Below, piece by piece: positions 50,463-62,819 of a DNA stretch of 64,000 nt. A program made the position numbers and the translations under genes. Numbering within the stretch: position 1 is the first letter of the stretch; each line of letters starts with the position of its first letter. Under the pieces are notes generated by a model. It was not told the origin of the DNA, ran no database searches, and was given only the letters and a program-made list of their open reading frames with translations. The DNA is from an uncultured Alphaproteobacteria bacterium (lineage in GTDB: Bacteria; Pseudomonadota; Alphaproteobacteria; HIMB59; GCA-002718135): the NCBI GenBank assembly GCA_902597795.1, contig CACJZA010000007.1, forward strand, positions 4,733-68,732, read 5' to 3'.

Positions 50463-51272
50463 TTATTCCCATACCGCGTGAGGAGGCATTGACATTAATA
50501 TAGCATCAACATTCCCGCCAGTCTCTAGACCAAATTTTGTACCTCTATCATATAATAAGTTAAATTCAGCATAGCGACTACGCTTAACTAATTGTATCTT
50601 TTTTTCCTCTTCATTCCACTCCTCATCTTTAAGTGCAATTAAAGTATTTTTGATAAACTGATGAAAATAAATACCTACGTCTTGGACAAATTCAAAATCT
50701 TTTCCCCAATCGCCAGTTTGAAGGTAATCAAAAAATATTCCTCCAACACCTCTTGGTTCGTTTCTATGTTTAAGAAAAAAATAGTCATCACACCATTTTT
50801 TAAATTTAGGATAATATGATTTATCATATTTATTACACAAAACTTCTAAACCACTATGATATTTTTTCTCATCCTCAAATATTAAACAAGGTGTAATATC
50901 CATGCCTCCACCAAACCATTCCTGAGTGGTTTTAATAAATCTTGTATTAAAATGCATAGAAGGAATTTTAGGTGAAACAGGATGTAATACAACACTGATG
51001 CCGGTTGCATTATAATTTGGATCTTCTTTAGCACCCGGAATAGCATCTCTCATATTTTCGTTAAATGTCCCAGAGACGGTAGAAATATTTACTCCACCTT
51101 TTTCAACAATATTACCTTTAATTTTACTCATTTTACCACCACCATCACCTTTGTGATCCCAGTTACTTATTTCAAATTGATTTTCATCAATGTTTTGAAT
51201 AGTTTCAACTAAGTTATCTCGTAATTTTTCAAACCATTCTTTTGCAGTATTAAATTTGGGATCAGCAATCAT
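50463..51272 (-). CDS. hemF: Oxygen-dependent coproporphyrinogen III oxidase
   Basis: HemF-like throughout (RNEPRGVGGIFFDY). The ATG at 51272 forms an ATGA overlap with the hemH stop; the track uses an upstream TTG at 51281. Confidence 0.9.
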   Translation of the reverse strand: MIADPKFNTAKEWFEKLRDNLVETIQNIDENQFEISNWDHKGDGGGKMSKIKGNIVEKGGVNISTVSGTFNENMRDAIPGAKEDPNYNATGISVVLHPVSPKIPSMHFNTRFIKTTQEWFGGGMDITPCLIFEDEKKYHSGLEVLCNKYDKSYYPKFKKWCDDYFFLKHRNEPRGVGGIFFDYLQTGDWGKDFEFVQDVGIYFHQFIKNTLIALKDEEWNEEEKKIQLVKRSRYAEFNLLYDRGTKFGLETGGNVDAILMSMPPHAVWE

Positions 51273-52294
51273 AATGGCCAACCTTGAGTATGTTTTTTTA
51301 TCAGATTTACAAAAACATCTATGTGATCATCGTGATCGTTCAAGCAAGGTATATAATGATAATTTTCTCCACCTGACTCCATAAAATATTCTTTATTTTC
51401 TTCTTCAAGTTCTTCAAGTGTTTCAAGACAATCACTACTGAAACCAGGAGATATTATATGTATATTTTTAATCCCTTGTTTTGGTAATTCTTTTAATGTT
51501 TCACTTGTATATGGTTTTAACCATTCCTCTCTTCCAAATCTACTTTGGAAAGTAGTCATTATCTCATCATCAGATAATCCCATATGTTCTTTGACCAGTC
51601 TTGTGGTTTTAAGACAAAAGCAATGATACGGATCACCATTAGTCAAATACCTTTTTGGTATACCATGATAACTAAAAATAATTTTTTGTGGTTTTGAAGT
51701 TTTTTTCCAAAAAGACTTTATTGAATTTGACAATGCTTCAATATAATTTTTTTCTTCAAAGTACTGATTGATAAAACGCATTTCAGGTATCCAACGCCAT
51801 TTTTGCAATACATTTGTTACTTCATCAAATGTACTACCTGTTGTTGCAGCACAATATTGCGGATACATAGGTAGTACTAATAATCTTCTTACTTGTTTTT
51901 TTTGAAGTTTTAACAAAGCATCTGGAATAGATGGATTGCCATAACGCATTCCAACTTCAAAAACTATATTTTCATTTTTTGAAGAAAAAGATGATTGGAT
52001 TTTATTTAGTTGTCTGTTTGCGATATTTAAAAGTGGAGAACCCTTATCAGTCCAAATTTGTTTGTATGCTTCTGCTGACTTTGATGGTCTTATTTGTAAA
52101 ATTACTAACTTCAATATAATTTGCCATAAGATTTTAGGTAATTCTATTACTCTAGGGTCTGACAAAAATTGATTAAGATAAACTTTTAGTTCTTTTTTAT
52201 TTGGAGCATCTGGTGTGCCTAGGTTAGTAATTAAAACACCAATTTTTTCTTTACTCCCGTGCTCATAATCTTTTTCACCTATATATTTAACCAT
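51269..52294 (-). CDS. hemH: Ferrochelatase
   Basis: 341 aa with GVLITNLGTPDAP, MRYGNPSI and PMYPQY motifs. Confidence 0.9.
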   Translation of the reverse strand: MVKYIGEKDYEHGSKEKIGVLITNLGTPDAPNKKELKVYLNQFLSDPRVIELPKILWQIILKLVILQIRPSKSAEAYKQIWTDKGSPLLNIANRQLNKIQSSFSSKNENIVFEVGMRYGNPSIPDALLKLQKKQVRRLLVLPMYPQYCAATTGSTFDEVTNVLQKWRWIPEMRFINQYFEEKNYIEALSNSIKSFWKKTSKPQKIIFSYHGIPKRYLTNGDPYHCFCLKTTRLVKEHMGLSDDEIMTTFQSRFGREEWLKPYTSETLKELPKQGIKNIHIISPGFSSDCLETLEELEEENKEYFMESGGENYHYIPCLNDHDDHIDVFVNLIKKHTQGWPL

Positions 52295-52299
52295 ATCTA

Positions 52300-53298
52300 T
52301 TAGCTAAATTCTTTTCTGATATTTTCTATAAATAAATGAACATTTTTTTCTGGAGTATTTTTGTTAATTCCATGTCCAAGGCCACAAATCCAGCCATTAA
52401 GATTTTCAATTGATTTCATTTTTTTAATAAAATCTTTTAAATCATTAAGAAGTATGTCTGTTTCGCTTAACATTAATTGTTCATTAAAATTTCCTTGAAT
52501 AAATCCATGTTTTTGATTTTCAAACATAGATTTAAGATCTATTGTGTGATCATAGCCAAAACCAGCAAAGGGAAAACTTATGATAGAATTAAGATCTGTT
52601 AAACTCTTACCTCTTGAATAATAGCCAAGTTTATTTGGAAAAGAAATTGCAATCTCTTCCAAAAATTTTGAATAAATTTCATGAAAATTTATTTTATCTA
52701 AATCATACAAGGAGCTATCAAAAATCATCACAAGTTCTACACCTGCATCTAATTGTAATTGAATATTTTTCTTAAGAAGAGGTAAGAGAATTTTTGAAAT
52801 AAATTCTAAATTCATTTTAGTGTCGATTAAATCAGAGTTATTATTTCCAAATGCATATTTTGATAATGTCCAAGGTCCACCAACAAATCCAATTAAACTT
52901 TTATTATTAGGCAATTTCTCTTTTGTTATTTTTATAGCTTCAAATTGAAACTGCATATGCTCAATGCCACGATCAATATTACTATAATTACTAATGTTTT
53001 CTGAATTTATATAAGAATTAAATTTAGGTCCTGGGTCAAACTTTAATTCTAAACCAAGTCCCTCCAAGATAAATAAAATATCACTAAATAAAATTGCAAT
53101 ATCGTAATCAAACTCTTGTATTGGACCAAAAGCGACTTCTGCGGCTAGATCTGGAGTTTTACAAAGTTCTTCAAAAGTATATTTTTCTTTTAGCTTGCGA
53201 TAATGCGAATGGTACCTCCCAGCCTGTCTCATAAACCAAATGGGTGGTGTTTTTTGAATATTTCTTTTGATAGCATTTTCGAATAAAATATTTTTCAT
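52300..53298 (-). CDS. hemE: Uroporphyrinogen decarboxylase
   Basis: PPIWFMRQAGRY motif. The ATG at 53298 (MKNILFEN) lies 2 nt after the hemC stop; the track start at 53328 would overlap hemC by 28 nt. Confidence 0.9.
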   Translation of the reverse strand: MKNILFENAIKRNIQKTPPIWFMRQAGRYHSHYRKLKEKYTFEELCKTPDLAAEVAFGPIQEFDYDIAILFSDILFILEGLGLELKFDPGPKFNSYINSENISNYSNIDRGIEHMQFQFEAIKITKEKLPNNKSLIGFVGGPWTLSKYAFGNNNSDLIDTKMNLEFISKILLPLLKKNIQLQLDAGVELVMIFDSSLYDLDKINFHEIYSKFLEEIAISFPNKLGYYSRGKSLTDLNSIISFPFAGFGYDHTIDLKSMFENQKHGFIQGNFNEQLMLSETDILLNDLKDFIKKMKSIENLNGWICGLGHGINKNTPEKNVHLFIENIRKEFS

Positions 53299-53300
53299 TT

Positions 53301-54809
53301 TTAGGCTTTTAGTAATTTTTTCTTCCAACTATCATAAGATAGCTCAACAAAAAGATTTTTATCATTACCTAATATTTTGCTAATCTCATTGTAAGTATTT
53401 CCTGGGCCACAAAAATGATATTTTTCTATAATTTTAGGATATTTATCAATACTCGCCTTAAAAGCTGAACTACTCATCCAATAAAAGTACTTTTTCTTTT
53501 CTATATCTATTTCAAAATCAATAGACTCCAATTGATACGTTTCAATTTTATTTTTTATGGAACTTTCAGAAGATTGAGAATGAGTTAACTTAACCCAAGG
53601 ATTATTTGTAAGTGAATTAATATCTTTATCAAAATCCTCACCAAGACCATCTGAAGTTCCATTAACCCAAATACCTCTTTCAGATAAATTTTTCCATGTT
53701 CTTAAACCACTAGTCCAAATAACATTATTTGATTGGATTTTTGACTTATCTGGGATTGAGCTAATTCGTGAAACATAAATACATTTATTTTGTAAATTAT
53801 TTATATCATCAACATTTTCATTTAATTGTTTTCTAGAAAATATTTTATAATTTTTTAAATTTTCAGGATAAATTTCATCTGTTGTATTACTAGTAAAACT
53901 TATATCTTTTGGATCAATAAAATCCCAGCTCTCAAAATGATTGCCATTTTCATCTTCACCTCTTTTAGATACAACTAATCCTAATTTATGTGAGATGTAA
54001 GATACTCCTATTTTTTGATGACATCCTCCTCCATAATTTTTTAAAATATTTCTTTCTTGAATAACATTTGAATAATCTTTGGAAAAATTAATATCATTTA
54101 AAATTTCGTTAAGTTTATTATCTTTAATTCTTGTTTCAATCGCTAGAGCTCCTTGTCCAGGAGAACAAGGATTTATAGACAATGGTAAAACAGACCATAG
54201 ACATTCGTTAATATATTTTTTTAGAGTTGTTTTTAATTCATTAAATTCAGAATAATTATTTAAAAGTAATCTATCAATTGCTGCCTTAGCAACAATGAAA
54301 CCATCACTATTAGGATCTTCCAGAAATTTTTTAAATCTAGTAGGTATGTTACCTCTTATATTTTCAAAGCAAACTTCATCAAACTTTTGTGGAAGATAAT
54401 TTTCAATAAAATTTTCTAAATTATATTGTCTTCGAGGCGATGAGCAAAGAATAGTAATTTTCTTACCATCTAATGTTATGTTTTTTTTTAAGAATAATAC
54501 ATCTCTTTTGTCGGCTCGTTTTATTGTTGCAGTTATTTTAGTTTTATCACCAACTTCAATTGGAAGATCCTTCCAAGAGTGGACAATTAAATCACATTTA
54601 TTATTTATTAATTCATCTCTTAAATCATTAGTAAAAACACCTTCTGTTGGCATTTCAGAAAGAGGGGTCTTTAGATCTTTATCTCCAGAGGTACTTCTCG
54701 TTAAAAATTCTATTTCTACAAAAGGATGTTTTGATTGCAAATAATCGGAAAACTCACGTGCTTGAATAATTGCTAAGTCACTTTTTCTCGATAAAACTCT
54801 AATTTTCAT
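53301..54809 (-). CDS. hemC: Hydroxymethylbilane synthase with a ~190-aa C-terminal extension (possibly uroporphyrinogen-III synthase-like)
   Basis: Residues 1 to about 300 carry HemC motifs: SGDKD, HSWKDLP, RGNIPTRFKK, PGQGALAIE, and the cofactor Cys in GGGCHQKIGV. Total length is 502 aa against about 310 for a typical HemC. Confidence 0.8.
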   Translation of the reverse strand: MKIRVLSRKSDLAIIQAREFSDYLQSKHPFVEIEFLTRSTSGDKDLKTPLSEMPTEGVFTNDLRDELINNKCDLIVHSWKDLPIEVGDKTKITATIKRADKRDVLFLKKNITLDGKKITILCSSPRRQYNLENFIENYLPQKFDEVCFENIRGNIPTRFKKFLEDPNSDGFIVAKAAIDRLLLNNYSEFNELKTTLKKYINECLWSVLPLSINPCSPGQGALAIETRIKDNKLNEILNDINFSKDYSNVIQERNILKNYGGGCHQKIGVSYISHKLGLVVSKRGEDENGNHFESWDFIDPKDISFTSNTTDEIYPENLKNYKIFSRKQLNENVDDINNLQNKCIYVSRISSIPDKSKIQSNNVIWTSGLRTWKNLSERGIWVNGTSDGLGEDFDKDINSLTNNPWVKLTHSQSSESSIKNKIETYQLESIDFEIDIEKKKYFYWMSSSAFKASIDKYPKIIEKYHFCGPGNTYNEISKILGNDKNLFVELSYDSWKKKLLKA

Positions 54810-54851
54810 GGATTATATTTATTTAAATAGCACTATATAATAAAATTAGTA

Positions 54852-55415
54852 ATGGTTGAATTTAAAGGTACAAAATCTTCGTGGGGCTTGGTTGCAAAAC
54901 TTTTTCATTGGTCATTAGCACTTCTTCTTTTTTGGCAAGTTGCAACAGGGATTAGCCTTCATAATATGGAATTTTCTCCTCTTAAAATGGGTTTTATTAT
55001 TACTCATAAATTTTTTGGCACCTTAGTCTTTAGTTTAGTTGTACTTAGATTAATGTGGAAATACATATTTAATACTCATCCGAAATATGAAAATATTCCT
55101 TTATTTCATAAATTGGTTTCGAATTTAGTCCATTTTGTACTTTATGGTTTAGTTATTCTTATTCCTATTCAAGGTACCTTTATGACCTGGCTTGGAGGAG
55201 AAGATGTCCATCTCTTGGGATTAATTACAATACCACCTTTAATCGAAGAGAACTTTTTTCTATACCCTCAAGCTCTGGCTATACACTACTACTCAGCACT
55301 TATATTAACAGCTCTTTTTTCACTTCATATTGCAGCGGCATTGTATCATCGATTCATGATTAAAGATAAATATGGTGTCTGGAGGAGAATGTCTTTTAGT
55401 AGACATAAGGTGTGA
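54852..55415 (+). CDS. Cytochrome b561-family membrane protein
   Basis: 187 aa, four TM helices, with conserved His positions (KLFHWSLAL, ITHKFFG, HYYSA, HIAAALYH). Confidence 0.75.
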   Translation: MVEFKGTKSSWGLVAKLFHWSLALLLFWQVATGISLHNMEFSPLKMGFIITHKFFGTLVFSLVVLRLMWKYIFNTHPKYENIPLFHKLVSNLVHFVLYGLVILIPIQGTFMTWLGGEDVHLLGLITIPPLIEENFFLYPQALAIHYYSALILTALFSLHIAAALYHRFMIKDKYGVWRRMSFSRHKV

Positions 55416-55470
55416 CAATTCATTCAATTAAAGACTTACAATTAAACATTGTCTAAGTTATCTAATATTA

Positions 55471-56706
55471 ATGCAATATAAAAATTTCTTTAAATCTGAA
55501 TTAAAAAATCTCAAAGAACAAGGTCTTTATAGAGACTTTAGAAATATAGACAGACCTATAAGAAGTTTTCCAAATGCAGATGAAAGTTTCAAAGATAAAC
55601 AAAGAGAAGTAGAGGTTTGGTGTTCTAATGACTATCTAAACATGAGTCAGCATCCAGAGGTAGTAAATGAAATTGTAAAAACACTACTTGAATATGGATC
55701 AGGTTCAGGTGGAACAAGAAATATTTCTGGTACATCAACCTATCATACTGAACTTGAAAAAAAACTCGCAAATGTTCACAATAAAGAAGCAGCATTAGTT
55801 TTTGCTTCTGCTTATACAGCAAACCAATCTACTTTATGGACTTTAGGAAAAAAAATTAAAGATATTGAGATATTTTCAGATGAATTAAATCATGCATCAT
55901 TAATACAAGGTATTAAGAATAGTGGAGCTAAGTGTCATATATTTAAACATAATGACATTGATCATTTAGAACAGTTACTAAAAGAGTCAGATGTAGATAA
56001 TCCTAAATTAATCGTTTTTGAAAGTTTGTACTCCATGGAAGGCATAAGATCACCCATAGTTAAAATTGTAGAGTTAGCAAAAAAATATAACTGCATGACA
56101 TATTTAGATGAAGTTCATTCAGTTGGACTTTACGGTAAAGAAGGTAAAGGTATTGCAGTAGAAATGGGAGTTGAAGATAAAATAGATATTATTAATGGGA
56201 CTTTAGCAAAAGCATACGGTCAAATGGGAGGCTATATTGCAGCTAGTTCAGAAATAATTGACTACATTAGGAGTTTTGCACCAGGTTTTATTTTTACAAC
56301 TTCAATTTGCCCATCAATTGCTGCAGGAGCATCTAAGGCAATAGATATTGTTTCTCTTGCAGAACAATTAAGAATAAGAATAAAAGAAAATGCTGCTTTA
56401 ATAAGGGAAAATTTAGATTCCTTAGCAATTCCTTATTTGGATACGAATTCTCATATAGTAGCAGTATTAATAAATGATCCTTTTTTATGTAAAAAAGTAT
56501 CGAAAGATTTAATTGATGATCATGGTATTTATGCACAACCAATTTTTTATCCAACTGTGCCAAAAGGTTTAGAAAGACTGAGAATAACCGTTACACCAAA
56601 GCATAGAAAAGAGCATATTGAAAAAATGATTAAGGCTCTAGATACTGTTTGGTCTAAAAACAATTTGCCAAGAAAAAATATTAATAAAGTTACAGCAAAT
56701 ATCTAA
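55471..56706 (+). CDS. hemA: 5-aminolevulinate synthase (C4/Shemin pathway)
   Basis: 411 aa with [11 protein letters not shown]...[16 protein letters not shown] and a PLP-Lys region (NGTLAKAYG). Confidence 0.9.
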
Positions 56707-57605
56707 GTCTTAATATTGATATCGATCTGTCTAGCCGCAAAACCATAGTAAACTACTGCTAGAGTTATTATAAAACCTCCAATTATTACAGTTGTACTTG
56801 GTACTTCATTAATTCCAAAAATAGGAAGCCATACCCAAAGAACTCCTCCAACAACTTCCATTAACGATAAAAGTGCAAGCTCAGCTGAGGGCAAATATTT
56901 TGCTCCAAGACTATAAAGTATCAAACCAGCTGCAACAATTAATCCATGAAGTATACTCAAATAACTATTTATTTGAGGCATCAGAATCAAAGGTTCAAAA
57001 GAGAAGCCTAAAATGAAGAACGCAAATATTGTACAAAATAGTCCAGCTAAAACAACTGTTGTGAATTTTGGCGTTTTAGGTTTCCATCTTATTGTTACCG
57101 TGTATAACGCAAAACCAGTTGCAGAAATAAATCCTATTATTGCACCTAAAGCAGTTCCAGAAATACTATCATTTATAATCATCACGCAAACACCTATAAA
57201 TGCTACAACCATGGCAATTAATGTTGATTTTTTTAATATTTCACCAAGAACAAAATAACCAACAATGGCTGCAATAAAAGGCATGGCTGCTAACATAAAT
57301 AATGTAACAGCAGCAGTAGTCATAGTAATAGAAAAAATAAAACCTGTAAAAGCTGTTGCTAGAAATAAACCTCCGAGTATGGATGGAATTCCTATTTTGA
57401 AAAAATTCTTATAAAAAGCAAAACCTTCACGAAAAAATAAATATATAAGAAGAATAAATGAAATTGTTAAACCTCTATAAAATAAATATTGAAAAACATA
57501 TTGATGGCCATCGACCATATATCTAACGGTTAACGCTCCAAAACTCCAAAAAATTCCAGCAAGAAAAACTACACAAAAAGCATATAAATAAGAATTTTGA
57601 CTCAT
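56703..57605 (-). CDS. DMT-superfamily (EamA-like) transporter
   Basis: 300 aa, about 10 TM helices. Its stop overlaps the convergent hemA stop. Confidence 0.8.
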
Positions 57606-57779
57606 TATTTAATGGTCAAATCATTAAATTTAATAAAAGTAAATTAATATTTTAGTTATTTATTTGAATACCAGTTTCTTTACTTCCTGAGATCTTAAAA
57701 TTAACTTTATTATCATCATTTTTTTGAATTTCAGTCACAGATGACATTTTACAACTTGCAATAGAAAGTAGTAAAAAAA

Positions 57780-58283
57780 TTATTGGCAGCTGCCTATAGA
57801 TCCAAGAGCACATTTTTTACCATCTATCCAAATTGCATTTGATAAATTTGCTTCATCAAAAATTGCTCCTGAAATATTAGCTCCTAGTAAATTTGCTTCA
57901 TATAAATTTGCACCATTAAAAGTAGCTCCAAAGAGATTAGATCCTTCAAAGTTTACTCTAGCAAGGTTTGCATTATCAAAATTAGCATTATTGCAATTTG
58001 CACCTTGTAAGTTAGAAGCATATAAATTTGAATTACTAAAATTTGAGAAAATAAAATTACCAATTGATAAATTTGAGTTGTTAAGTTGAGATTTTTCCAA
58101 ATTAGATAGAGATAAATTAACTCCTGACATTTGAGAGTTAGCCAAACCAAAACCAGATAAATCTACATTTTCATTAAAATCACAATTGGTCCAATCCACT
58201 TCATTTGCTGGCTGGTCACTGCACGCAGCAAATACAGAGAAAGAGCTAAACAAACTAAATACAAATAAAATTAAAAATCTCAT
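57780..58283 (-). CDS. Secreted or lipid-anchored pentapeptide-repeat protein
   Basis: 167 aa with signal peptide MRFLILFVFSLFSSFSVFAAC followed by contiguous A(N/D)LxG-type pentapeptide repeats (ANLARVNFEGSNLFGATFNGANLYEANLLGANISGAIF). Confidence 0.85.
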   Translation of the reverse strand: MRFLILFVFSLFSSFSVFAACSDQPANEVDWTNCDFNENVDLSGFGLANSQMSGVNLSLSNLEKSQLNNSNLSIGNFIFSNFSNSNLYASNLQGANCNNANFDNANLARVNFEGSNLFGATFNGANLYEANLLGANISGAIFDEANLSNAIWIDGKKCALGSIGSCQ

Positions 58284-58324
58284 ATCGATTTTTTATGATC
58301 AGTTTATGTTAAATTTAAGGCAAA

Positions 58325-60091
58325 TTAGCGAGAAGTGAGTTTTAGTTCAATCCTTCTATTTTGCTGCAGGTCACTCTCAGTTTCTCCTTCACTAATAGGG
58401 TAAAACTCTCCATATCCAGCAGATGCTAATCTATTTGGTGGAAAACCAAGATCAAGAAGAAGCTTTAGAACTGTATTAGCTCTGGCTGAAGATAATTCCC
58501 AGTTTGATGGATATCTAATTGTCTGTATAGGTCTTTTGTCAGTGTGACCTTCTACCATAATAATCCAATCAATATCAGATGGGATATCATTAGTAGTCTC
58601 TTTTAAAGTAAGGCCAATTTCACTTAACTTTTCTTTACCAGATAGTTGTAAATCTGCTGACGCAGAATCAAATAATAGCTCTGATTCAAAAATAAATCTA
58701 TCTCCCACAATTTTAATGTCTTTTCTATCACCTAAAATAGATTGTAATTTTCCAAAAAACTCAGATCTATATTTTTGAAGCTCAAATACTTTAGATGTAA
58801 GAGCCTTGTTTAATTTTTCACCAAGTACTTCAATTTCTAAATCCTTAATTAAAGCCTGACTTTCACTCGCTTCTAAAGCACTATTAAGTAAAGCAATTTC
58901 TTTTTGTAAAGTATCAATTTGATTAGAGAGAATTTCTACCTGCTCTAATGTTTTTGAAGCTTGTATTTCCATTTTTTCAATTTCTTCAAGTGACGTTTCC
59001 TTTTGTGCTTGATTCTCTTCTTCTAATGAAACAATTTGATTTTGGAGGAGTTCAAGTTTTTCAAGTTGCTGTTTTTGTTTTTCTTCAGACAAAGATAGTA
59101 CATTATTTAATTCAGAAATTTTTCCACGAAGATTGAAAATAGTATTATCTTTCTGTAATAAATCTTTATTTAATCTTGCTAGTTCTTCATTTTTAAATCT
59201 AATTGCATCAAGTTGCTCATTAAGTGATGCATCTTTTAAGCCAAGACTATCGTTAATTTCTAAAAGATCATTCATTAATTGTTGATATTGAGATATTTGA
59301 TTTTGTAATTCTTCATCTCTTAAAGATAATTCAATATTTGTTTTCTCTAAATCGTTATTTAAACTTAGTAGTTCCTCATTTTTGTTTTTTATTGCCAATA
59401 ATTGATCTTCAATTCCTCCATCCTCTAAACCCAAACTTTCGTTAATTGCCATTAAATTATTATTCTTTTCATTTAATTCTGAAATTGTTGCTTTAAGAGA
59501 TTTCTCACTTTCCATTAGTTTAAAATTCGCATTATCTAATTCTTGATTAAGTATTTTAAGCTGATCAATCCTTGTTGCTAGCGCTTTATTAATCCTTTCA
59601 CCTAAACCTTCGGTTTCGAGTAAAGCAATTTCTTGTCCTTCATAAGTTTCTAGAGCATTTGCAACTATTCTTAACTCTTTTAAAAGACTGCTAATTTGCT
59701 CGGATAATGCAATAATATTTTGCTCTTGAACAAAAATTTCTGATCGTTTTTTTGCTACATCTGTTTGTAATTGTTCACTTAATAACCGTTCACTTTTTAA
59801 ATTTGATTGCGTATCTTCAAGTTGTTTCTCTGTTTCTGAGAGGGTTGAAAGAGCTTCTTCTTTGTCTTTAGTTTCAATAACTAATATTTTTGAAAGTTCA
59901 TTAATTTGTGATCTTAAATCTTGGAGTGCTTTATCTCTCCCTGATATGGCATCACTTAAGTATATCTGTGAAACTGTAAAGACCATTAATACAAAGATAA
60001 TTACAATTAATAATGTAGCTAAAACATCCACAAAACCTGGCCAGATATTTGTTGTATCAGCAAGTCTATTTCTTAAAGACCTAGTAGACAT
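58325..60091 (-). CDS. MotB/OmpA-family protein with a very long coiled-coil spacer
   Basis: 588 aa. N-terminal MotB/TolR-type TM segment with Asp (WPGFVDVLATLLIVIIFVL). Roughly residues 45-440 are heptad-like E/L/Q/N/K-rich sequence. C-terminal OmpA_C domain (VEGHTDKRP, NWELSSARANTV, NRRIELKL). Confidence 0.85.
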   Translation of the reverse strand: MSTRSLRNRLADTTNIWPGFVDVLATLLIVIIFVLMVFTVSQIYLSDAISGRDKALQDLRSQINELSKILVIETKDKEEALSTLSETEKQLEDTQSNLKSERLLSEQLQTDVAKKRSEIFVQEQNIIALSEQISSLLKELRIVANALETYEGQEIALLETEGLGERINKALATRIDQLKILNQELDNANFKLMESEKSLKATISELNEKNNNLMAINESLGLEDGGIEDQLLAIKNKNEELLSLNNDLEKTNIELSLRDEELQNQISQYQQLMNDLLEINDSLGLKDASLNEQLDAIRFKNEELARLNKDLLQKDNTIFNLRGKISELNNVLSLSEEKQKQQLEKLELLQNQIVSLEEENQAQKETSLEEIEKMEIQASKTLEQVEILSNQIDTLQKEIALLNSALEASESQALIKDLEIEVLGEKLNKALTSKVFELQKYRSEFFGKLQSILGDRKDIKIVGDRFIFESELLFDSASADLQLSGKEKLSEIGLTLKETTNDIPSDIDWIIMVEGHTDKRPIQTIRYPSNWELSSARANTVLKLLLDLGFPPNRLASAGYGEFYPISEGETESDLQQNRRIELKLTSR

Positions 60092-60093
60092 TA

Positions 60094-61119
60094 TTATTTT
60101 TTAATTTTCTTTAATTCTTTTTCAATATTCTGAAAATACTCTTTAATTTTTTTTGCTTCTAATATTCCATTTTTACTTAACGCTTCTGTTAAGTTCATAA
60201 GAGAAGATTGTGTATTTAGCTGAGAAGATAAAAAATTTGATAGTTGTTTATCAAGATTGGATGAGTTCGAATTTATTTTATTAAGTGTTTCATTAAATTT
60301 ATCTAAATTTTTTGAGATTTTAGTTTGATTTTCAGATGATTTTTTAAAAGTATTTAAAAGATTTTCTAAGTTATCATAAATTTTTTGAATTGCTTCACCA
60401 GTTGGCTTATCTTCAACTTTAGAAAAATCAGGCGATGAATTAGAATTAAGTATTTTCTCAAAGTATTGACTAAATTTATTTTGCGCTTGACCAAGATTTA
60501 GATCAAGTAATCCTAAAATTAAAGAACCTGCTAAACCTAACAATGAACTACTAAATGCAATGCTCATTCCTTCTAGTGGAGCGTTTAAACCATCTTTAAG
60601 AGAATTAAAAAAACCTGCAACATTAGTATCATCTATATCTAAGCCACTAATAACATTGCCGACAGATCCAATGGTTTGAAGAAGTCCCCAGAAAGTTCCA
60701 AGGAGTCCTAAAAAAACTAGCAAACCTACCAGGTAACGAGAAGTTTCTCTTATGCTTATCAAAGTCATATCAGAATTCTCTATCAATCTATTTATTGATG
60801 AACTTTTAAAAACAAATTTTCCATCAATATTTTTTAATTCAAGAGAAATATTTTTGTCCTGACCTCTTAAATTTGAAAATGCTTCTAGGGAATTAATAAT
60901 GTTGAAGTTGGAATAAGATATATATTTATAATTTAAATAAATGAGATGGAATAAATTAAATAGGATTCCAATTAACAAAGCTAATAAAATTATAATGTTA
61001 ATAAAAATATTTGATAAAAAAGCATTTTGTAAAACTGGATATAATAAAACTACAATAACAAAAACAGCAACTAAAAATATAGAAGCTCTAATTAAATAAT
61101 TATTTAATGATTGTGCCAT
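60094..61119 (-). CDS. MotA/TolQ/ExbB-family proton-channel protein with a helical C-terminal tail
   Basis: 341 aa with four TM segments, the channel signature FLGLLGTFWGLLQTIG and the following helix MSIAFSSSLLGLAGSLILGLL. About 125 aa of hydrophilic helical tail. Its stop is 2 nt from the MotB-like start. Confidence 0.8.
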   Translation of the reverse strand: MAQSLNNYLIRASIFLVAVFVIVVLLYPVLQNAFLSNIFINIIILLALLIGILFNLFHLIYLNYKYISYSNFNIINSLEAFSNLRGQDKNISLELKNIDGKFVFKSSSINRLIENSDMTLISIRETSRYLVGLLVFLGLLGTFWGLLQTIGSVGNVISGLDIDDTNVAGFFNSLKDGLNAPLEGMSIAFSSSLLGLAGSLILGLLDLNLGQAQNKFSQYFEKILNSNSSPDFSKVEDKPTGEAIQKIYDNLENLLNTFKKSSENQTKISKNLDKFNETLNKINSNSSNLDKQLSNFLSSQLNTQSSLMNLTEALSKNGILEAKKIKEYFQNIEKELKKIKK

Positions 61120-61168
61120 AATAGAGGATTATATCACCTGCATTGGAAATTCAATAAATATAAAGAGC

Positions 61169-62353
61169 TTAATTGTAGATATAATTTCTCGTAAGAGGCA
61201 AATTGTCAATATTCTTTGCTATTTGTATTTGAAAAACAACATTACCCATATTGACAAAGGAATACTTACTTGCCAAAAGATAAAACTCCCACATTCTAAA
61301 GAAACGTTGATCAAACATCTTTATAATTTTATCCTTATTTTCCATAACATTTTGATACCATTTAGAAAGTGTGTGAGCATAATGTAGTCTAAGTACTTCA
61401 ACATCAGTAACATTTATATTTAGTTTTTGTGTTTCATTCATTACTTCAGATAATGATGGAATATAACCACCAGGAAAAATGTATTTTCTTATCCAAGGAC
61501 TTGTAGCTGTTGGTTTGCCTCTTTGACCAATTGTATGTAAAAGAAAAACACCATTTTCTTTTAGAATATCATTAGCTTTACTTAAATAAGTTTTAAAATA
61601 TTTTACACCAACATGCTCAAACATTCCAACTGATACTATACGGTCATATTTTTCAATCTCATTTCTATAATCTTGTAATGCAAAAGAGACTTTGTCAGTC
61701 AAACCCTCTTTTTGTGCTCTTTCAGAAGCAGTCTTAAATTGATTTTCTGAAAGTGTAATTCCCTTTACTTTAGCTCCAGTAGATTTTGCTATTTCAATTG
61801 CCATTCCGCCCCAACCACATCCAATATCAAGTACATTCATATTTTCTGTAATTTGTAGTTTTCTAATTATATGTTGTTTTTTATCTTTCTGCGCTTGATC
61901 TAAACTCATATTGGGATTGTGAAAATATGCGCAAGAATATTGCATATCCTGATCGAGAAATAGCTTATATAAATCTTCATTTATATCGTAATGGTGTGCT
62001 ACATTTTTTTTTGAATTTACAAGCTGATTAATTTGCTGAAGTGGCATAAAAATAGAAGATAAATACTCATAAAATTTATAAAACTTATTATTAGAAATAA
62101 AGTCGTCGTAACAATTAGTTATTAAATTAAGAAAATCTTCTATAGTGCCTTTTTCAATAACTAACTCCTCATTCATATATGCTTCACCTATATGAAGATT
62201 AGGATTTAAAAATAGCTTTCTTTCAATAGATTTGTTTTTTAATCTTATACAAACGTGAGGATTTGAATTTCCAAATTTATAAATTTTATCATTAGAGTCT
62301 ATTATTTCTAATGTTCCATCAAAGTTAAGTTTTTTCAGTACACTGAATAACAT
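61169..62353 (-). CDS. Cyclopropane-fatty-acyl-phospholipid synthase-family SAM-dependent methyltransferase
   Basis: 394 aa with SAM motif VLDIGCGWGG and CMAS-family C-terminal region (FRMWEFYL). Confidence 0.85.
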   Translation of the reverse strand: MLFSVLKKLNFDGTLEIIDSNDKIYKFGNSNPHVCIRLKNKSIERKLFLNPNLHIGEAYMNEELVIEKGTIEDFLNLITNCYDDFISNNKFYKFYEYLSSIFMPLQQINQLVNSKKNVAHHYDINEDLYKLFLDQDMQYSCAYFHNPNMSLDQAQKDKKQHIIRKLQITENMNVLDIGCGWGGMAIEIAKSTGAKVKGITLSENQFKTASERAQKEGLTDKVSFALQDYRNEIEKYDRIVSVGMFEHVGVKYFKTYLSKANDILKENGVFLLHTIGQRGKPTATSPWIRKYIFPGGYIPSLSEVMNETQKLNINVTDVEVLRLHYAHTLSKWYQNVMENKDKIIKMFDQRFFRMWEFYLLASKYSFVNMGNVVFQIQIAKNIDNLPLTRNYIYN

Positions 62354-62440
62354 GGTTTTATTATTTTAAGAAAAACATCTCTTATGTCAATAACTCTAAA
62401 TTATTAACATTTAATGAGAAAATAATTTTTAGAGATTGAC

Positions 62441-62665
62441 TTAAGCAGCGATGCGACGATTTTTTTGAGCTTCTTTTTCTTTTTTAAGCTCTTTTTCGTC
62501 AATATACGCAATATCACAGTGGCTCTGACAGTAAGGCTTTCCAGCAACGGTATCAGCTTCACAAAAATGAAAATCTTTCTCTTGTGGATCTCCAATTGGC
62601 CATTGGCAACTTGAGAAACTGTGCATCACACTGTTTTGTTTGAAATAATTTTTTAATATAGACAT
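62441..62665 (-). CDS. Small protein carrying only a GcrA-type C-terminal motif
   Basis: CQWPIGDPQEKDFHFCEADTVAGKPYCQSHCDIAY matches the conserved C-terminal motif of alphaproteobacterial GcrA as I recall it (C-x-WP-x-GDP...F-x-FCG...G-x-PYC..H). No GcrA N-terminal DNA-binding domain is present. Start uncertain: track 62722, internal ATGs at 62665 and 62626. Confidence 0.6.
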   Translation of the reverse strand: MSILKNYFKQNSVMHSFSSCQWPIGDPQEKDFHFCEADTVAGKPYCQSHCDIAYIDEKELKKEKEAQKNRRIAA

Positions 62666-62819
62666 AATGATTTTATTAATTTCGAGGTAGTTTATATTTA
62701 TGAAAAAACCAGTATTCAACATTAAAAATAAAAAAGTTGTTAATTATCAATATGTTAGTACTTTAATCTTTTTGACCTACTATATGTTGATACAAAATTA
62801 ATAACAAAAACGAATCGGT

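What the first reader, a model, noticed from the sequence alone, without database searches (positions are those of the whole stretch)
57780..61119. Stator-like MotA/ExbB plus coiled-coil MotB/OmpA pair with a secreted pentapeptide-repeat protein, with no flagellar, Tol or Ton context
Three co-directional genes sit 2 nt and 41 nt apart.

- The first (60094..61119) has the MotA/TolQ/ExbB channel signature (LGLLGTFWGLLQTIG) plus a ~125-aa helical cytoplasmic tail.
- The second (58325..60091) has the MotB/TolR-type TM segment with the conserved Asp (FVDVLATLL) and a canonical OmpA peptidoglycan-binding domain. These are separated by about 400 residues of coiled-coil-like sequence.
- The third (57780..58283) is a signal-peptide-bearing pentapeptide-repeat protein.

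Canonical MotB, TolR and ExbD are short and lack such a spacer. At 0.15 nm per helical residue a fully extended coil would be about 60 nm, longer than a typical periplasm, so it must fold back or serve another role.

The one stator-like system with a long coil that I know of is Zorya. It puts the coil on the A subunit in the cytoplasm and has nuclease or helicase partners, which are absent here. No flagellar, TolA/TolB/Pal or TonB genes are in the window. This looks like an uncharacterised ion-driven envelope machine.
Basis: partly seen in the sequence, partly recalled or inferred. Interest (0 to 1): 0.72.

Follow-up and report, generated by a model that had tools for sequence, protein, structure and literature searches.

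The report
Housekeeping Zorya-like membrane motor pair
Two adjacent SAR11 genes encode an uncharacterised ion-driven membrane motor, closest to the anti-phage Zorya motor but sitting among housekeeping genes across Alphaproteobacteria, whose cell-wall anchor sits on an unusually long stalk that varies in length by whole seven-residue steps.

Summary
The three co-directional genes are real and sit exactly where stated.

- **A (341 aa)** is a divergent MotA/ExbB-superfamily channel subunit. Its nearest defined relatives, by profile and by fold, are Zorya ZorA proteins.
- **B (588 aa)** has an invariant WPGFVD transmembrane Asp and about 410 proline-free helical residues. It ends in a MotB-type OmpA peptidoglycan-binding domain and passes the curated cut-off of NCBIfam PRK09039.
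- **C (167 aa)** is a secreted pentapeptide-repeat protein and possibly a lipoprotein.

A and B are adjacent in 77 of 78 informative loci. These span Alphaproteobacteria, including Sinorhizobium meliloti, plus a few other Proteobacteria. The context is housekeeping (efp, suhB, rpmE), and no homologue was found on true plasmids or phages. No Zorya effector genes are present. Gene C is a partner only in the SAR11-like lineage.

In that lineage 11 of 12 distinct B lengths differ by multiples of seven residues, partly through copy number of a 28-residue unit.

Most likely this is a proton-driven 5:2 motor anchored to the cell wall. Its cellular role is unknown, and I found no characterised member. 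I rate it a new variant of a known kind, of moderate to high interest.

The parts
60094..61119 (-). Gene A: 341-aa channel (rotor-type) subunit of the MotA/ExbB/ZorA superfamily
   Evidence: ORF. PADLOC ZorA3 E 1.2e-12 and ZorA1 E 1.4e-11. 33/43 relatives hit PF01618. AF2 pLDDT 87.2. Foldseek top hits are ZorA, then ExbB, TolQ and MotA.
60955..61083 (-). A residues 13-55: two N-terminal hydrophobic helices (TM1, TM2)
   Evidence: Kyte-Doolittle windows >=1.6 centred at aa 13-31 and 37-55. AF2 helices 6-25, 27-36 and 38-75.
60499..60738 (-). A residues 128-207: the channel-lining helix pair. It holds the invariant GLLGTFWGL (aa 138-146) and PLxGM..FSSS..GL (aa 181-196) motifs and the polar residues T142, T149, S190 and S192.
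   Evidence: Invariant columns in alignments A1 and A2. Coordinates. This is the region matched by the ZorA and MotA_ExbB profiles.
60097..60435 (-). A residues 229-341: cytoplasmic helical tail with heptad periodicity. It is the shortest tail among the 43 family members aligned in A1.
   Evidence: AF2 helices 241-316 and 322-340. The 3.5-residue periodicity z-score reaches 8.4 at aa 236-290, and the tail is 113 aa against 113-173 in the family.
58325..60091 (-). Gene B: 588-aa axle/anchor subunit, a member of NCBIfam PRK09039 ('peptidoglycan -binding protein')
   Evidence: NF006543 359.8 bits against a cut-off of 305. PADLOC ZorB3 E 1.2e-22. AF2 model.
59972..60043 (-). B residues 17-40: single TM helix opening with WPGFVD. 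The Asp22 codon is at 60026..60028.
   Evidence: W17, P18, V21 and D22 are invariant in 106 and in 54 sequences. Hydropathy maximum at aa 23-41, and 3 Arg in the N-terminal 16 aa.
58733..59971 (-). B residues 41-453: periplasmic helical/coiled-coil stalk with three Gly-rich hinges (aa 152-160, 220-225, 283-289)
   Evidence: No Pro in aa 45-440, a Leu/Glu/Lys/Gln/Asn-rich composition, and heptad periodicity z of 2-3.7 in most windows. AF2 helices 17-151, 161-219, 226-282 and 290-453.
59297..59380 (-). B residues 238-265: the 28-residue (four-heptad) unit NEELLSLNNDLEKTNIELSLRDEELQNQ. It is present once here and two or three times in the 616- and 644-aa alleles.
   Evidence: Alignment of the 588-, 616- and 644-aa variants. 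Coordinates.
58328..58723 (-). B residues 457-588: OmpA/MotB-type peptidoglycan-binding domain (invariant GHTD, SNWELS..R, NRRIE)
   Evidence: Pfam OmpA E 3.1e-15. PDB sequence hits to MotS, MotB and PomB. Foldseek TM 0.75-0.83 to MotB, MotS and PomB periplasmic domains. Invariant columns.
57780..58283 (-). Gene C: 167-aa secreted pentapeptide-repeat protein, a lineage-specific neighbour and possibly a lipoprotein
   Evidence: PF00805 72.7 bits. It sits downstream of B in 78 of 79 SAR11-like loci (the full CFA-A-B-C-EamA order in 68), and the B-C gap is about 41 nt in nearly all loci where it was printed. It has an invariant Cys21 after the signal peptide and four further invariant Cys. No homologue sits next to A-B outside this lineage.
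61128..61154 (-). Promoter-like element in the 49-nt CFA-A spacer: TTGAAT, 15 nt, then TG-n-TATAAT, ending 8 nt before the A start codon
   Evidence: Read directly from the sequence. This is a consensus resemblance only. The scan tool did not list it because the spacer is under 16 nt. No terminator-like site lies in 57500..62500.

Best explanation
A and B form an inner-membrane, ion-driven (most likely proton-driven) motor of the 5:2 class.

**Proposed assembly**
- Five A subunits surround the TM helices of a B dimer.
- Each B helix carries the invariant Asp22, facing a ring of invariant Thr/Ser residues on A (T142, T149, S190, S192).
- B's N-terminus is cytoplasmic. Its single TM helix continues into a roughly 410-residue periplasmic coiled-coil stalk.
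- The stalk ends in a MotB-type OmpA domain that binds peptidoglycan. That would make the B dimer the fixed axle.
- Ion flow would turn the A pentamer. The C-terminal heptad-repeat helices of A would bundle into a short cytoplasmic tail, a miniature of the ZorA tail.

**Family and context**
The pair belongs to a vertically inherited, chromosomal housekeeping family. It is centred on Alphaproteobacteria and is the nearest known relative of the Zorya ZorAB core, but it has no Zorya effectors.

**Role**
Its cellular role is not established. I favour monitoring or maintaining envelope architecture, with wall engagement at the end of the stalk gating the motor. In the SAR11-like lineage the secreted pentapeptide-repeat protein C may be a periplasmic accessory.

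**Shown versus inferred**
- Shown: homology, domain order, conserved residues, conserved gene pairing, genomic context, and heptad-quantised stalk length.
- Inferred: 5:2 stoichiometry, rotation, the coupling ion, peptidoglycan binding, tail bundling, the physiological role, and any involvement of C.
For: **Identity of A**
- PADLOC ZorA3 and ZorA1 E about 1e-12.
- All 43 diverse relatives hit the ZorA1 and ZorA3 profiles, best 4.6e-16.
- 33/43 hit Pfam MotA_ExbB.
- A confident AF2 model (pLDDT 87.2) has best PDB matches to ZorA (8vvn, 8qyk, 8qyd), then ExbB, TolQ and MotA.
- Invariant GLLGTFWGL and PLxGM..FSSS motifs carry T142, T149, S190 and S192. These parallel the Ser/Thr ring around the ZorB Asp described in PMC11890865.

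**Identity of B**
- NF006543 score above the curated cut-off.
- W17, P18, V21 and D22 invariant in 106 sequences.
- OmpA domain with invariant GHTD and NRRIE.
- Fold match to MotB, MotS, PomB and ZorB.

**Topology**
- Three Arg lie before B's single TM helix.
- A has four hydrophobic segments, with K+R enrichment in aa 63-127 and in the tail.

**Stalk**
- No proline in aa 45-440, and heptad periodicity.
- Four long helices in the AF2 model.
- 11 of 12 distinct B lengths in 71 complete SAR11-like genes are congruent modulo 7.
- The 588-, 616- and 644-aa alleles carry 1, 2 and 3 copies of a 28-residue unit.

**Pairing**
- B lies directly downstream of A in 77 of 78 informative loci.
- The 2-nt gap fits translational coupling.

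**Housekeeping context**
- efp-suhB-(OmpA)-A-B-rpmE in a Rhodospirillales-type genome.
- thiE-sel1-suhB-A-B...rpmE in S. meliloti.
- No match on phages, and matches only on mislabelled chromosomes in the plasmid set.
- The local GC content matches the rest of the window.
Against: - The window's A alone is below Pfam's and every NCBIfam curated threshold.
- An A-core profile finds only a weak ExbB hit among PDB sequences (E 0.12). Foldseek E-values are modest (3.5e-3).
- Stoichiometry could not be modelled because no multimer tool was available.
- A straight 410-residue coil would be about 60 nm, far longer than a periplasm. Close relatives differ by up to 126 residues. The stalk therefore cannot be a rigid ruler across a fixed gap. 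How a long, hinged stalk could resist torque is unexplained.
- The A tail is shortened in SAR11, which lacks the family's conserved C-terminal motif. The tail is nearly absent in some deltaproteobacterial members (A of 241-289 aa). A cytoplasmic output is therefore not universal.
- The link to C is weak. The CFA-synthase and EamA flanks are just as syntenic.
Confidence: 0.6

Rival explanations
1. Tol-Pal-like force transducer. The output is periplasmic rather than cytoplasmic. B combines a TolR-like TM Asp helix, a TolA-domain-II-like long helix and a Pal-like wall-binding domain in one chain. Powered by A, it would extend or retract to tether or remodel the outer layers. Secreted partners would be C in SAR11, or the Pro-rich OmpA-like protein encoded upstream in other lineages.
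For: The accessory genes that recur beside A-B are secreted proteins. One is a signal-peptide, Pro-rich, OmpA-like protein directly upstream of A in 25 loci. The other is C in the SAR11-like lineage. The stalk is conserved at both ends and variable in the middle, as expected of a flexible reach element. The A tail is dispensable in some lineages.
Against: There is no TolA/TonB-type partner or TolB-like gene beside the pair. B's C-terminus binds the wall itself rather than an outer-membrane protein. A's closest relatives are ZorA, not TolQ or ExbB. No interaction was tested.
Confidence: 0.2
2. A minimal or degenerate Zorya-type anti-phage system. A-B would sense envelope perturbation by phage and act through an effector encoded elsewhere or not yet recognised.
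For: ZorA and ZorB are the best-scoring defined families and the best structural matches.
Against: - No zorC/D, zorE or zorF/G homologue is adjacent. C has no PADLOC hit and the flanks are CFA synthase and EamA.
- Hu et al. [quoted passage not shown]
- The A tail here is 113 aa against about 500 aa in E. coli ZorA.
- ZorB has no linker, whereas B has about 410 helical residues.
- The context is a conserved housekeeping neighbourhood across orders.
- The family is absent from phages and true plasmids.
- Scores are far below NCBIfam's ZorA cut-offs (17 bits against 100-500).
Confidence: 0.07
3. A passive structural anchor. B is simply a wall-anchored coiled-coil protein, and A is a non-conducting membrane chaperone or scaffold that has lost motor activity.
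For: A's sequence similarity to working motors is remote. The stalk length is very tolerant of change, as might be expected of a non-mechanical tether.
Against: The residues that define the ion pathway are the most conserved in both proteins across over 100 sequences: Asp22 and WPGF in B, and GLLGTFWGL with the Thr/Ser positions in A. That is hard to explain without ion-coupled function. A streamlined SAR11 genome retains both genes.
Confidence: 0.08
4. A flagellar, pilus or gliding stator (a true MotAB), as many public records name the A orthologues.
For: NCBI names several A orthologues 'flagellar motor protein MotA' and JGI names B 'chemotaxis protein MotB'. B's OmpA domain is most like MotB, MotS and PomB.
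Against: - TIGR03818 MotA scores 13.5 bits against a cut-off of 303.8. The MotB, MotS and MotD models score at most 97 bits against cut-offs of 250-312.
- A's cytoplasmic loop is about 65 aa, with no match to MotA's torque-generating region.
- The pair sits next to efp, suhB and rpmE, not flagellar genes.
- From general knowledge, SAR11 is non-flagellated.
Confidence: 0.03

Closest known systems
Zorya ZorA-ZorB core (5:2 proton-driven motor of an anti-phage system; PDB 8qyd, 8vvn)
   Same: It is the best profile match for A (PADLOC ZorA1/ZorA3; NCBIfam ZorA_2/_3/_4) and a strong match for B (ZorB3 E 1.2e-22). It is also the best structural match for A, and it appears among B's matches. Shared features are a TM Asp on B, a Ser/Thr-bearing inner helix pair on A, an OmpA-type wall-binding domain on B, and a C-terminal heptad-repeat cytoplasmic tail on A that starts at nearly the same residue (about 229 here, 223 in E. 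coli ZorA).
   Different: - No ZorC/D, ZorE or ZorF/G genes are present.
- The tail is 113-173 aa rather than about 500 aa.
- B has a helical spacer between TM helix and wall-binding domain (about 410 residues in the window; family B lengths of 328-644 aa imply shorter spacers elsewhere). ZorB has none.
- A has two N-terminal hydrophobic helices.
- The context is chromosomal, housekeeping and vertically inherited, not a defence island.
- Scores are far below NCBIfam's curated ZorA cut-offs.
NCBIfam PRK09039 (NF006542-NF006546), 'peptidoglycan -binding protein'
   Same: B scores 359.8 bits against NF006543's cut-off of 305. Orthologues in Azospirillum, Asaia, Nitrospirillum, Acetobacter and Sinorhizobium carry exactly this name.
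   Different: The family name describes only the C-terminal domain. No function, partner or motor role is attached to it. The SAR11-type proteins carry an extra insertion of about 250 residues in the stalk.
Flagellar stator MotA-MotB / PomA-PomB
   Same: The same superfamily and the same logic: a channel subunit plus a single-TM Asp subunit with an OmpA domain. B's C-terminal domain superposes best on MotB, MotS and PomB.
   Different: A lacks MotA's large cytoplasmic torque domain and falls far below the MotA model cut-offs. B's linker is many times longer. There is no flagellar gene context.
Tol-Pal (TolQ-TolR-TolA-Pal) and ExbB-ExbD-TonB
   Same: They belong to the same motor superfamily (fold hits to ExbB and TolQ). 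TolA domain II is likewise a long helical periplasmic element (general knowledge). Pal is likewise an OmpA-type wall binder (it appears among B's hits).
   Different: Here the TM Asp helix, the long helix and the wall-binding domain lie in one polypeptide. There is no TolR/ExbD-type periplasmic domain and no TolA-, TonB- or TolB-like gene nearby. No NCBIfam TolQ or ExbB model is hit at E<=1e-3 by any of 43 family members.
Pentapeptide-repeat proteins (Pfam PF00805; Qnr, MfpA, HetL, lumenal Rfr proteins)
   Same: C passes PF00805, PF13599 and PF13576.
   Different: C has a signal peptide and five invariant cysteines, one in a lipobox-like position. It is therefore extracytoplasmic, unlike the cytoplasmic DNA-mimic members. 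It falls far below every curated NCBIfam pentapeptide subfamily cut-off.

Membership tests
MotA/TolQ/ExbB superfamily (Pfam PF01618) | Protein scores at or above the Pfam gathering threshold for MotA_ExbB | tested here: not met
   Window A scores 13.5 bits, E 0.064, against a cut-off of 22.9.
MotA/TolQ/ExbB superfamily (Pfam PF01618) | Homology shown through relatives and fold: inner helix pair with the G-x-x-G-T-x-x-G motif and the pentamer-type fold | tested here: met
   33/43 relatives hit PF01618, best 5.2e-6. GLLGTFWGL is invariant. Foldseek probability is 1.0 to ZorA and ExbB, with TolQ and MotA also hit.
5:2 rotary motors (general) | A5B2 stoichiometry | not testable with these tools
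   Only monomer prediction was available.
5:2 rotary motors (general) | Conserved acidic residue in the single TM helix of the B subunit | tested here: met
   Asp22 is invariant in 106 and in 54 aligned B sequences.
Zorya (ZorAB plus effectors) | ZorA- and ZorB-type sequences | tested here: inconclusive
   PADLOC ZorA3 E 1.2e-12 and ZorB3 E 1.2e-22, and all 43 relatives hit ZorA models. However, the NCBIfam ZorA models give 17 bits against cut-offs of 100-500.
Zorya (ZorAB plus effectors) | Adjacent effector genes (zorCD, zorE or zorFG) in canonical order | tested here: not met
   The neighbours are a CMAS-type methyltransferase and an EamA transporter. C has no PADLOC hit. In 74 wider loci the recurrent neighbours found were efp, an inositol monophosphatase, a secreted OmpA-like protein and an unannotated 610-680-aa ORF on the opposite strand (an ABC-cassette protein at that position in S. 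meliloti); rpmE lies downstream in the two annotated loci.
Zorya (ZorAB plus effectors) | Long ZorA cytoplasmic tail (about 500 aa in E. coli; long in all subtypes) | tested here: not met
   The tail is 113 aa here and 113-173 aa in the family. The ZorA tail spans G223-T729.
Zorya (ZorAB plus effectors) | ZorB wall-binding domain fused to the TM helix without a linker | tested here: not met
   About 410 helical residues separate the TM helix from the OmpA domain.
Flagellar stator MotAB | Scores above curated MotA and MotB equivalog cut-offs | tested here: not met
   TIGR03818 gives 13.5 bits against 303.8. MotD, MotS and MotB models give 37-97 bits against 250-312.
Flagellar stator MotAB | Flagellar gene context | tested here: not met
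   None of the annotated or profile-scanned genes flanking A-B is flagellar, in the window or in L160 and L163. No further stator-like ORF exists in the window. The whole genome was not examined.
Tol-Pal / Ton | TolR/ExbD-type periplasmic domain and a TolA/TonB partner | tested here: not met
   B carries an OmpA domain instead. No NCBIfam TolQ or ExbB model is hit by the A family. Neither the Pfam-annotated genes of L160-L162 nor the annotated genes of L163 include a TolA- or TonB-type protein. The whole genome was not examined.
NCBIfam PRK09039.1-2 (NF006543) | Score at or above the curated cut-off | tested here: met
   359.8 bits against 305.
OmpA-like peptidoglycan-binding domain (PF00691) | Pfam threshold and conserved wall-binding motifs | tested here: met
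   56.8 bits against 27.2. GHTD, SNWELS..R and NRRIE are invariant. Fold TM is 0.75-0.83 to MotB, MotS and PomB. Actual binding was not tested.
Pentapeptide repeat (PF00805) | Pfam threshold | tested here: met
   72.7 bits against 20.2.
Bacterial lipoprotein (for C) | Lipobox directly before an invariant Cys at the end of the signal peptide | tested here: inconclusive
   Cys21 is invariant. The preceding residues are VFAA, VYAG, AMGA or LNAA in different relatives, and only some fit the classical lipobox. No dedicated predictor was available.

The most novel reading that the evidence does not exclude
The pair is the cellular, housekeeping sister of the Zorya motor, an 'inside-out Zorya'. Its long coiled element is on the periplasmic B subunit rather than on the cytoplasmic A subunit. 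It is inherited vertically through Alphaproteobacteria and kept even in streamlined SAR11. It would use ion flow to sense or set the state of the cell envelope. Its stalk length is tuned in evolution by whole heptads. If so, Zorya defence was probably built by recruiting effectors onto such an envelope-monitoring motor. SAR11 would then carry a previously unrecognised fourth class of envelope motor, beside flagellar, Ton and Tol.
Probability: 0.3. Interest if true: 0.8.

Novelty: new variant of a known kind. Interest (0 to 1): 0.6.

Why it matters
Ion-driven 5:2 motors power flagella, gliding, nutrient import, envelope maintenance and, in Zorya, phage defence. Each newly understood branch has revealed a new way of using membrane energy.

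This branch is widespread: 942 clusters at 50% identity at E<=1e-10. It is retained in one of the most abundant and most streamlined bacteria in the ocean, and it also occurs in genetically tractable species such as Sinorhizobium meliloti. Yet it has no assigned function and is named inconsistently in public records.

Three things follow:
- Its closeness to ZorAB offers a way to ask where the Zorya sensor came from.
- The heptad-quantised stalk offers a natural series of length variants for testing how such a motor reaches the wall.
- Many records that call the A subunit 'flagellar motor protein MotA' in non-flagellar contexts need correcting.

Tried and rejected
**Searches that led nowhere**
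- The full-length A family profile against PDB sequences returned only coiled-coil noise from the tail.
- The trimmed A-core profile gave only a weak ExbB hit, E 0.12.
- A single-sequence PDB search with A found nothing meaningful.
- Eight literature searches found no paper on this family. The topics were PRK09039, 5:2 motor surveys, stator-like genes in model alphaproteobacteria, annotation strings in rhizobia and relatives, Zorya with SAR11, and the SAR11 periplasm.
- The 2025 MotAB evolution paper groups non-flagellar relatives as 'generic ion transporters' and excludes ZorAB from its trees. It does not describe this architecture.

**Ideas tested and rejected**
- Cell-cycle control by CtrA: no TTAA-N7-TTAA box in the 1.5 kb upstream of A in 69 GC-rich loci.
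- Mobile or defence-island origin: no phage hits. The only 'plasmid' hits are 3.5-4.6 Mb replicons that are evidently chromosomes.
- A conserved three-gene module: C has no homologue next to A-B outside the SAR11-like lineage.

**Technical failures**
- A regex for the B N-terminal motif mis-anchored. I replaced it with an alignment.
- A regex for the A C-terminal motif found nothing. That statement rests on alignment A1 instead.
I repeated it with admissible sequences.

**Not obtainable**
- I could not tell whether the modelled stalk is extended or folded back, because model coordinates are not exposed.

Full report
**Observation**

The window is AT-rich (GC about 0.30 throughout). It matches single-cell genomes labelled Pelagibacteraceae or uncultured Alphaproteobacteria at 94-98% protein identity.

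- A: 60094..61119, 341 aa
- B: 58325..60091, 588 aa
- C: 57780..58283, 167 aa

A and B are separated by two bases (TAA-TA-ATG). B and C are separated by 41 bases. The quoted motifs are present.

**Gene A**

By itself A misses Pfam's MotA_ExbB threshold: 13.5 bits against 22.9. It also misses every curated NCBIfam cut-off. It does match the PADLOC ZorA3 and ZorA1 profiles at about 1e-12 over its channel helices.

An exhaustive search showed that A belongs to a large family. There are 2094 clusters at 50% identity at E<=1e-3, and 942 at E<=1e-10.

In an alignment of 43 diverse members, the invariant positions cluster in two helices. One carries GLLGTFWGL (aa 138-146). The other carries PLxGM..FSSS..GL (aa 181-196). 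Together they include T142, T149, S190 and S192.

Family-level evidence for the assignment:
- 33 of the 43 hit PF01618 on their own.
- All 43 hit the PADLOC ZorA1 and ZorA3 models, best 4.6e-16.
- In NCBIfam the only motor models hit at E<=1e-3 are ZorA models. No MotA, TolQ or ExbB model is hit.

An AlphaFold2 model of A is confident (pLDDT 87.2). Its best solved-structure matches are ZorA chains (8vvn, 8qyk, 8qyd), then ExbB, TolQ and MotA. The E-values are modest (3.5e-3 and weaker). A core-only sequence profile finds just a weak ExbB match in the PDB, so the relationship is remote.

Hydropathy and charge distribution indicate four membrane helices with both termini in the cytoplasm.

The last 113 residues form long helices with strong heptad periodicity, z up to 8.4. 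This tail is the shortest among the 43 aligned family members (113-173 aa). It ends before the C-terminal segment conserved in most members, consensus GR......LR.EIRLL.RTI.

**Gene B**

B passes the curated cut-off of NCBIfam NF006543, PRK09039.1-2 'peptidoglycan -binding protein': 359.8 bits against 305.

Across 106 relatives, W17, P18, V21 and D22 are invariant (WPGFVD). So are the OmpA-domain positions within GHTD, SNWELS..R and NRRIE.

Three arginines precede the single hydrophobic helix at aa 17-40. The rest of the protein should therefore be periplasmic, as its wall-binding domain requires.

Features of the stalk:
- Residues 45-440 contain no proline and are rich in Leu, Glu, Lys, Gln and Asn.
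- Most 42-residue windows show heptad periodicity.
- The AlphaFold2 model (pLDDT 70.4) gives helices 17-151, 161-219, 226-282 and 290-453.
- The helices are broken at three Gly-rich hinges.
- A confident OmpA fold follows.

The OmpA domain superposes best on the periplasmic domains of MotB, MotS and PomB (TM 0.75-0.83). ZorB is also among the matches.

The family-wide alignment shows that both ends of the stalk are conserved. The extra length in SAR11 is an insertion between about aa 103 and 365.

**Stalk length comes in heptads**

Among 71 complete B genes of the SAR11-like lineage, the distinct lengths are 532, 581, 588, 595, 616, 623, 630, 637, 644, 651 and 658 aa. All are congruent modulo 7. 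One exception is 633 aa, in a divergent genome.

The common 588-, 616- and 644-aa alleles differ by one, two or three tandem copies of a 28-residue unit. In the window that unit is aa 238-265.

Whole-heptad changes preserve coiled-coil register, so this is independent evidence that the region is a coiled coil.

The 126-residue span among close relatives would be about 19 nm if extended. That argues against a rigid spacer across a fixed distance. The hinges suggest that the stalk can fold or lie obliquely. I could not test this, because model coordinates are not exposed.

**Conservation and context**

A profile-guided scan of species-representative genomes returned 80 loci.

- B lies directly downstream of A in 74 of them. 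In three more, B is split into two adjacent ORFs.
- Two loci end at a contig edge.
- One Holosporales locus has A followed by a release-factor gene and no B.

Carriers include Azospirillum, Nitrospirillum, Devosia, Asaia, Acetobacter, Kordiimonas, Defluviicoccus and Sphingomonadales. There are a few beta-, gamma- and deltaproteobacterial genomes. Elsewhere B is 328-644 aa, so a long spacer is the family norm.

The surrounding genes are housekeeping:
- deoC-thiE-efp-suhB-(secreted OmpA protein)-A-B-rpmE in a Rhodospirillales-type genome.
- thiE-sel1-suhB-A-B...rpmE in Sinorhizobium meliloti.

In 25 loci the gene directly upstream of A encodes a protein with a signal peptide, a Pro-rich linker and an OmpA-like domain. 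The window has no such gene.

A has no homologue in the phage collection. In the plasmid collection the only hits are 3.5-4.6 Mb replicons that are evidently chromosomes.

**Gene C and the operon**

C is a pentapeptide-repeat protein. It has a signal peptide and five invariant cysteines. The first follows the signal peptide directly, in a lipobox-like context that fits the classical pattern in only some relatives.

The order CFA-synthase, A, B, C, EamA holds in 68 of 79 SAR11-like loci. Ten of the other eleven show a shorter run of the same gene order, mostly cut by contig ends. The order persists down to about 60% B identity, and the B-C gap is about 41 nt in nearly all loci where I printed it. 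One relative at 55% identity (L078) lacks C. No C homologue accompanies A-B elsewhere.

The flanking genes are equally syntenic, so synteny alone is weak evidence that C works with A-B.

No terminator-like site lies in 57500..62500. The 49-nt spacer before A contains TTGAAT, 15 nt, then TG-n-TATAAT, ending 8 nt before the start codon. That is a consensus resemblance only.

**Mechanism**

The most conserved residues in both proteins are those that build the ion pathway in solved 5:2 motors: a TM Asp on the B dimer, facing a Ser/Thr ring on the A pentamer (PMC11890865).

I therefore commit to a wall-anchored, ion-driven 5:2 motor:
- B2 is fixed to peptidoglycan through its stalk and OmpA domains.
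- A5 turns around B2.
- The A tails bundle into a short cytoplasmic rod.

Stoichiometry, rotation, the coupling ion and wall binding are all inferred.

The cellular role is open. I favour envelope monitoring or maintenance. The main alternative is a Tol-like periplasmic output, in which the stalk acts as a TolA-like reach element working with secreted partners. Points for that alternative are that the recurrent accessory genes are secreted proteins and that the A tail is reduced or absent in some lineages.

**Comparison with known systems**

*Zorya.* According to Hu et al. (PMC11946911):
- The wall-binding domain of ZorB is fused to its TM helix without a linker.
- The E. coli ZorA tail spans residues 223-729.
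- Long tails occur in all subtypes.

The present pair fails the tail, linker and effector criteria. It also sits in a non-defence context, so it is not Zorya, although ZorAB is its nearest defined relative.

*Other systems.* It is not a flagellar stator (scores; context). It is not Tol or Ton: B has no TolR/ExbD-type domain, no TolA or TonB partner is nearby, and the A family hits no TolQ or ExbB model.

B is a bona fide member of PRK09039, a family that carries a name but no function.

*Public names.* Names for A orthologues are inconsistent: 'flagellar motor protein MotA', 'hypothetical protein', 'DNA recombination RmuC family protein' and 'MotA/TolQ/ExbB proton channel family protein'.

**Verdict**

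1. The conserved unit is A-B, not A-B-C.
2. The family is large and catalogued.
3. Zorya is its closest relative rather than a contrast.
4. A long B spacer is typical of the family.

I rate it a new variant of a known kind, with interest 0.6.

Noticed in passing
L084-L159, directly upstream of the A gene (e.g. L102:5186-5986, L160:5628-6737): In 25 of 74 loci the gene immediately upstream of A, on the same strand, encodes a protein with a signal peptide, a long Pro/Ala/Lys-rich linker and a C-terminal OmpA-like domain (NCBI: 'OmpA family protein'). It may be a third component of the system outside SAR11. The window has no counterpart.
   Followed up: partly
L150:5989-8174 (Holosporales MAG): This is the only informative locus where A is not followed by B. 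The next gene looks like peptide chain release factor 1. It may be an orphan A subunit in a reduced endosymbiont genome.
   Followed up: partly
L105:2318-3043, L125:1591-2457, L135:5941-6810 (Desulfobacterota-type MAGs): The A proteins are only 241-289 aa, so they largely lack the cytoplasmic tail, yet they are still paired with a 425-446-aa B. The tail is therefore not essential to the core machine.
   Followed up: no
Public records found: Annotation problems. A orthologues are variously named 'flagellar motor protein MotA', 'DNA recombination RmuC family protein' or 'hypothetical'. The 3.72-Mb S. meliloti Ak57 replicon that carries the pair is filed as 'plasmid pSymB' in the plasmid collection, and the 3.5-4.6 Mb Sinorhizobium and Shinella replicons are likewise filed as plasmids.
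   Followed up: partly
window 62441..62722 (-): A 93-aa ORF whose C-terminal half (…CQWPIGDPQEKDFHFCEADTVAGKPYCQSHCDIAYI…) looks by eye like the conserved domain of the alphaproteobacterial cell-cycle regulator GcrA. It lies just upstream of the CFA-synthase gene. No profile search was run.
   Followed up: no
window 51269..56706: A cluster of tetrapyrrole-synthesis-like genes next to the locus. By eye these are a ferrochelatase-like ORF (51269..52294), a uroporphyrinogen-decarboxylase-like ORF (52300..53328), a 502-aa ORF whose N-terminus looks like porphobilinogen deaminase and which is long enough to be a fusion (53301..54809), a cytochrome b561-like ORF and a 5-aminolevulinate-synthase-like ORF (55471..56706). 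None was checked with profiles.
   Followed up: no
window 61169..62353 (-): A cyclopropane-fatty-acyl-phospholipid-synthase-type methyltransferase (PF02353, E 4.6e-92) lies 49 nt upstream of A on the same strand. It is syntenic with A-B-C throughout the SAR11-like lineage but not elsewhere. A membrane-lipid modifier next to a membrane motor may or may not be meaningful.
   Followed up: partly
L073 and L075 (SAR11-like single-cell genomes): B appears truncated (362 and 372 aa), with a 681-735-nt gap after A. This suggests frameshifts or assembly errors inside the repetitive stalk-coding region.
   Followed up: no
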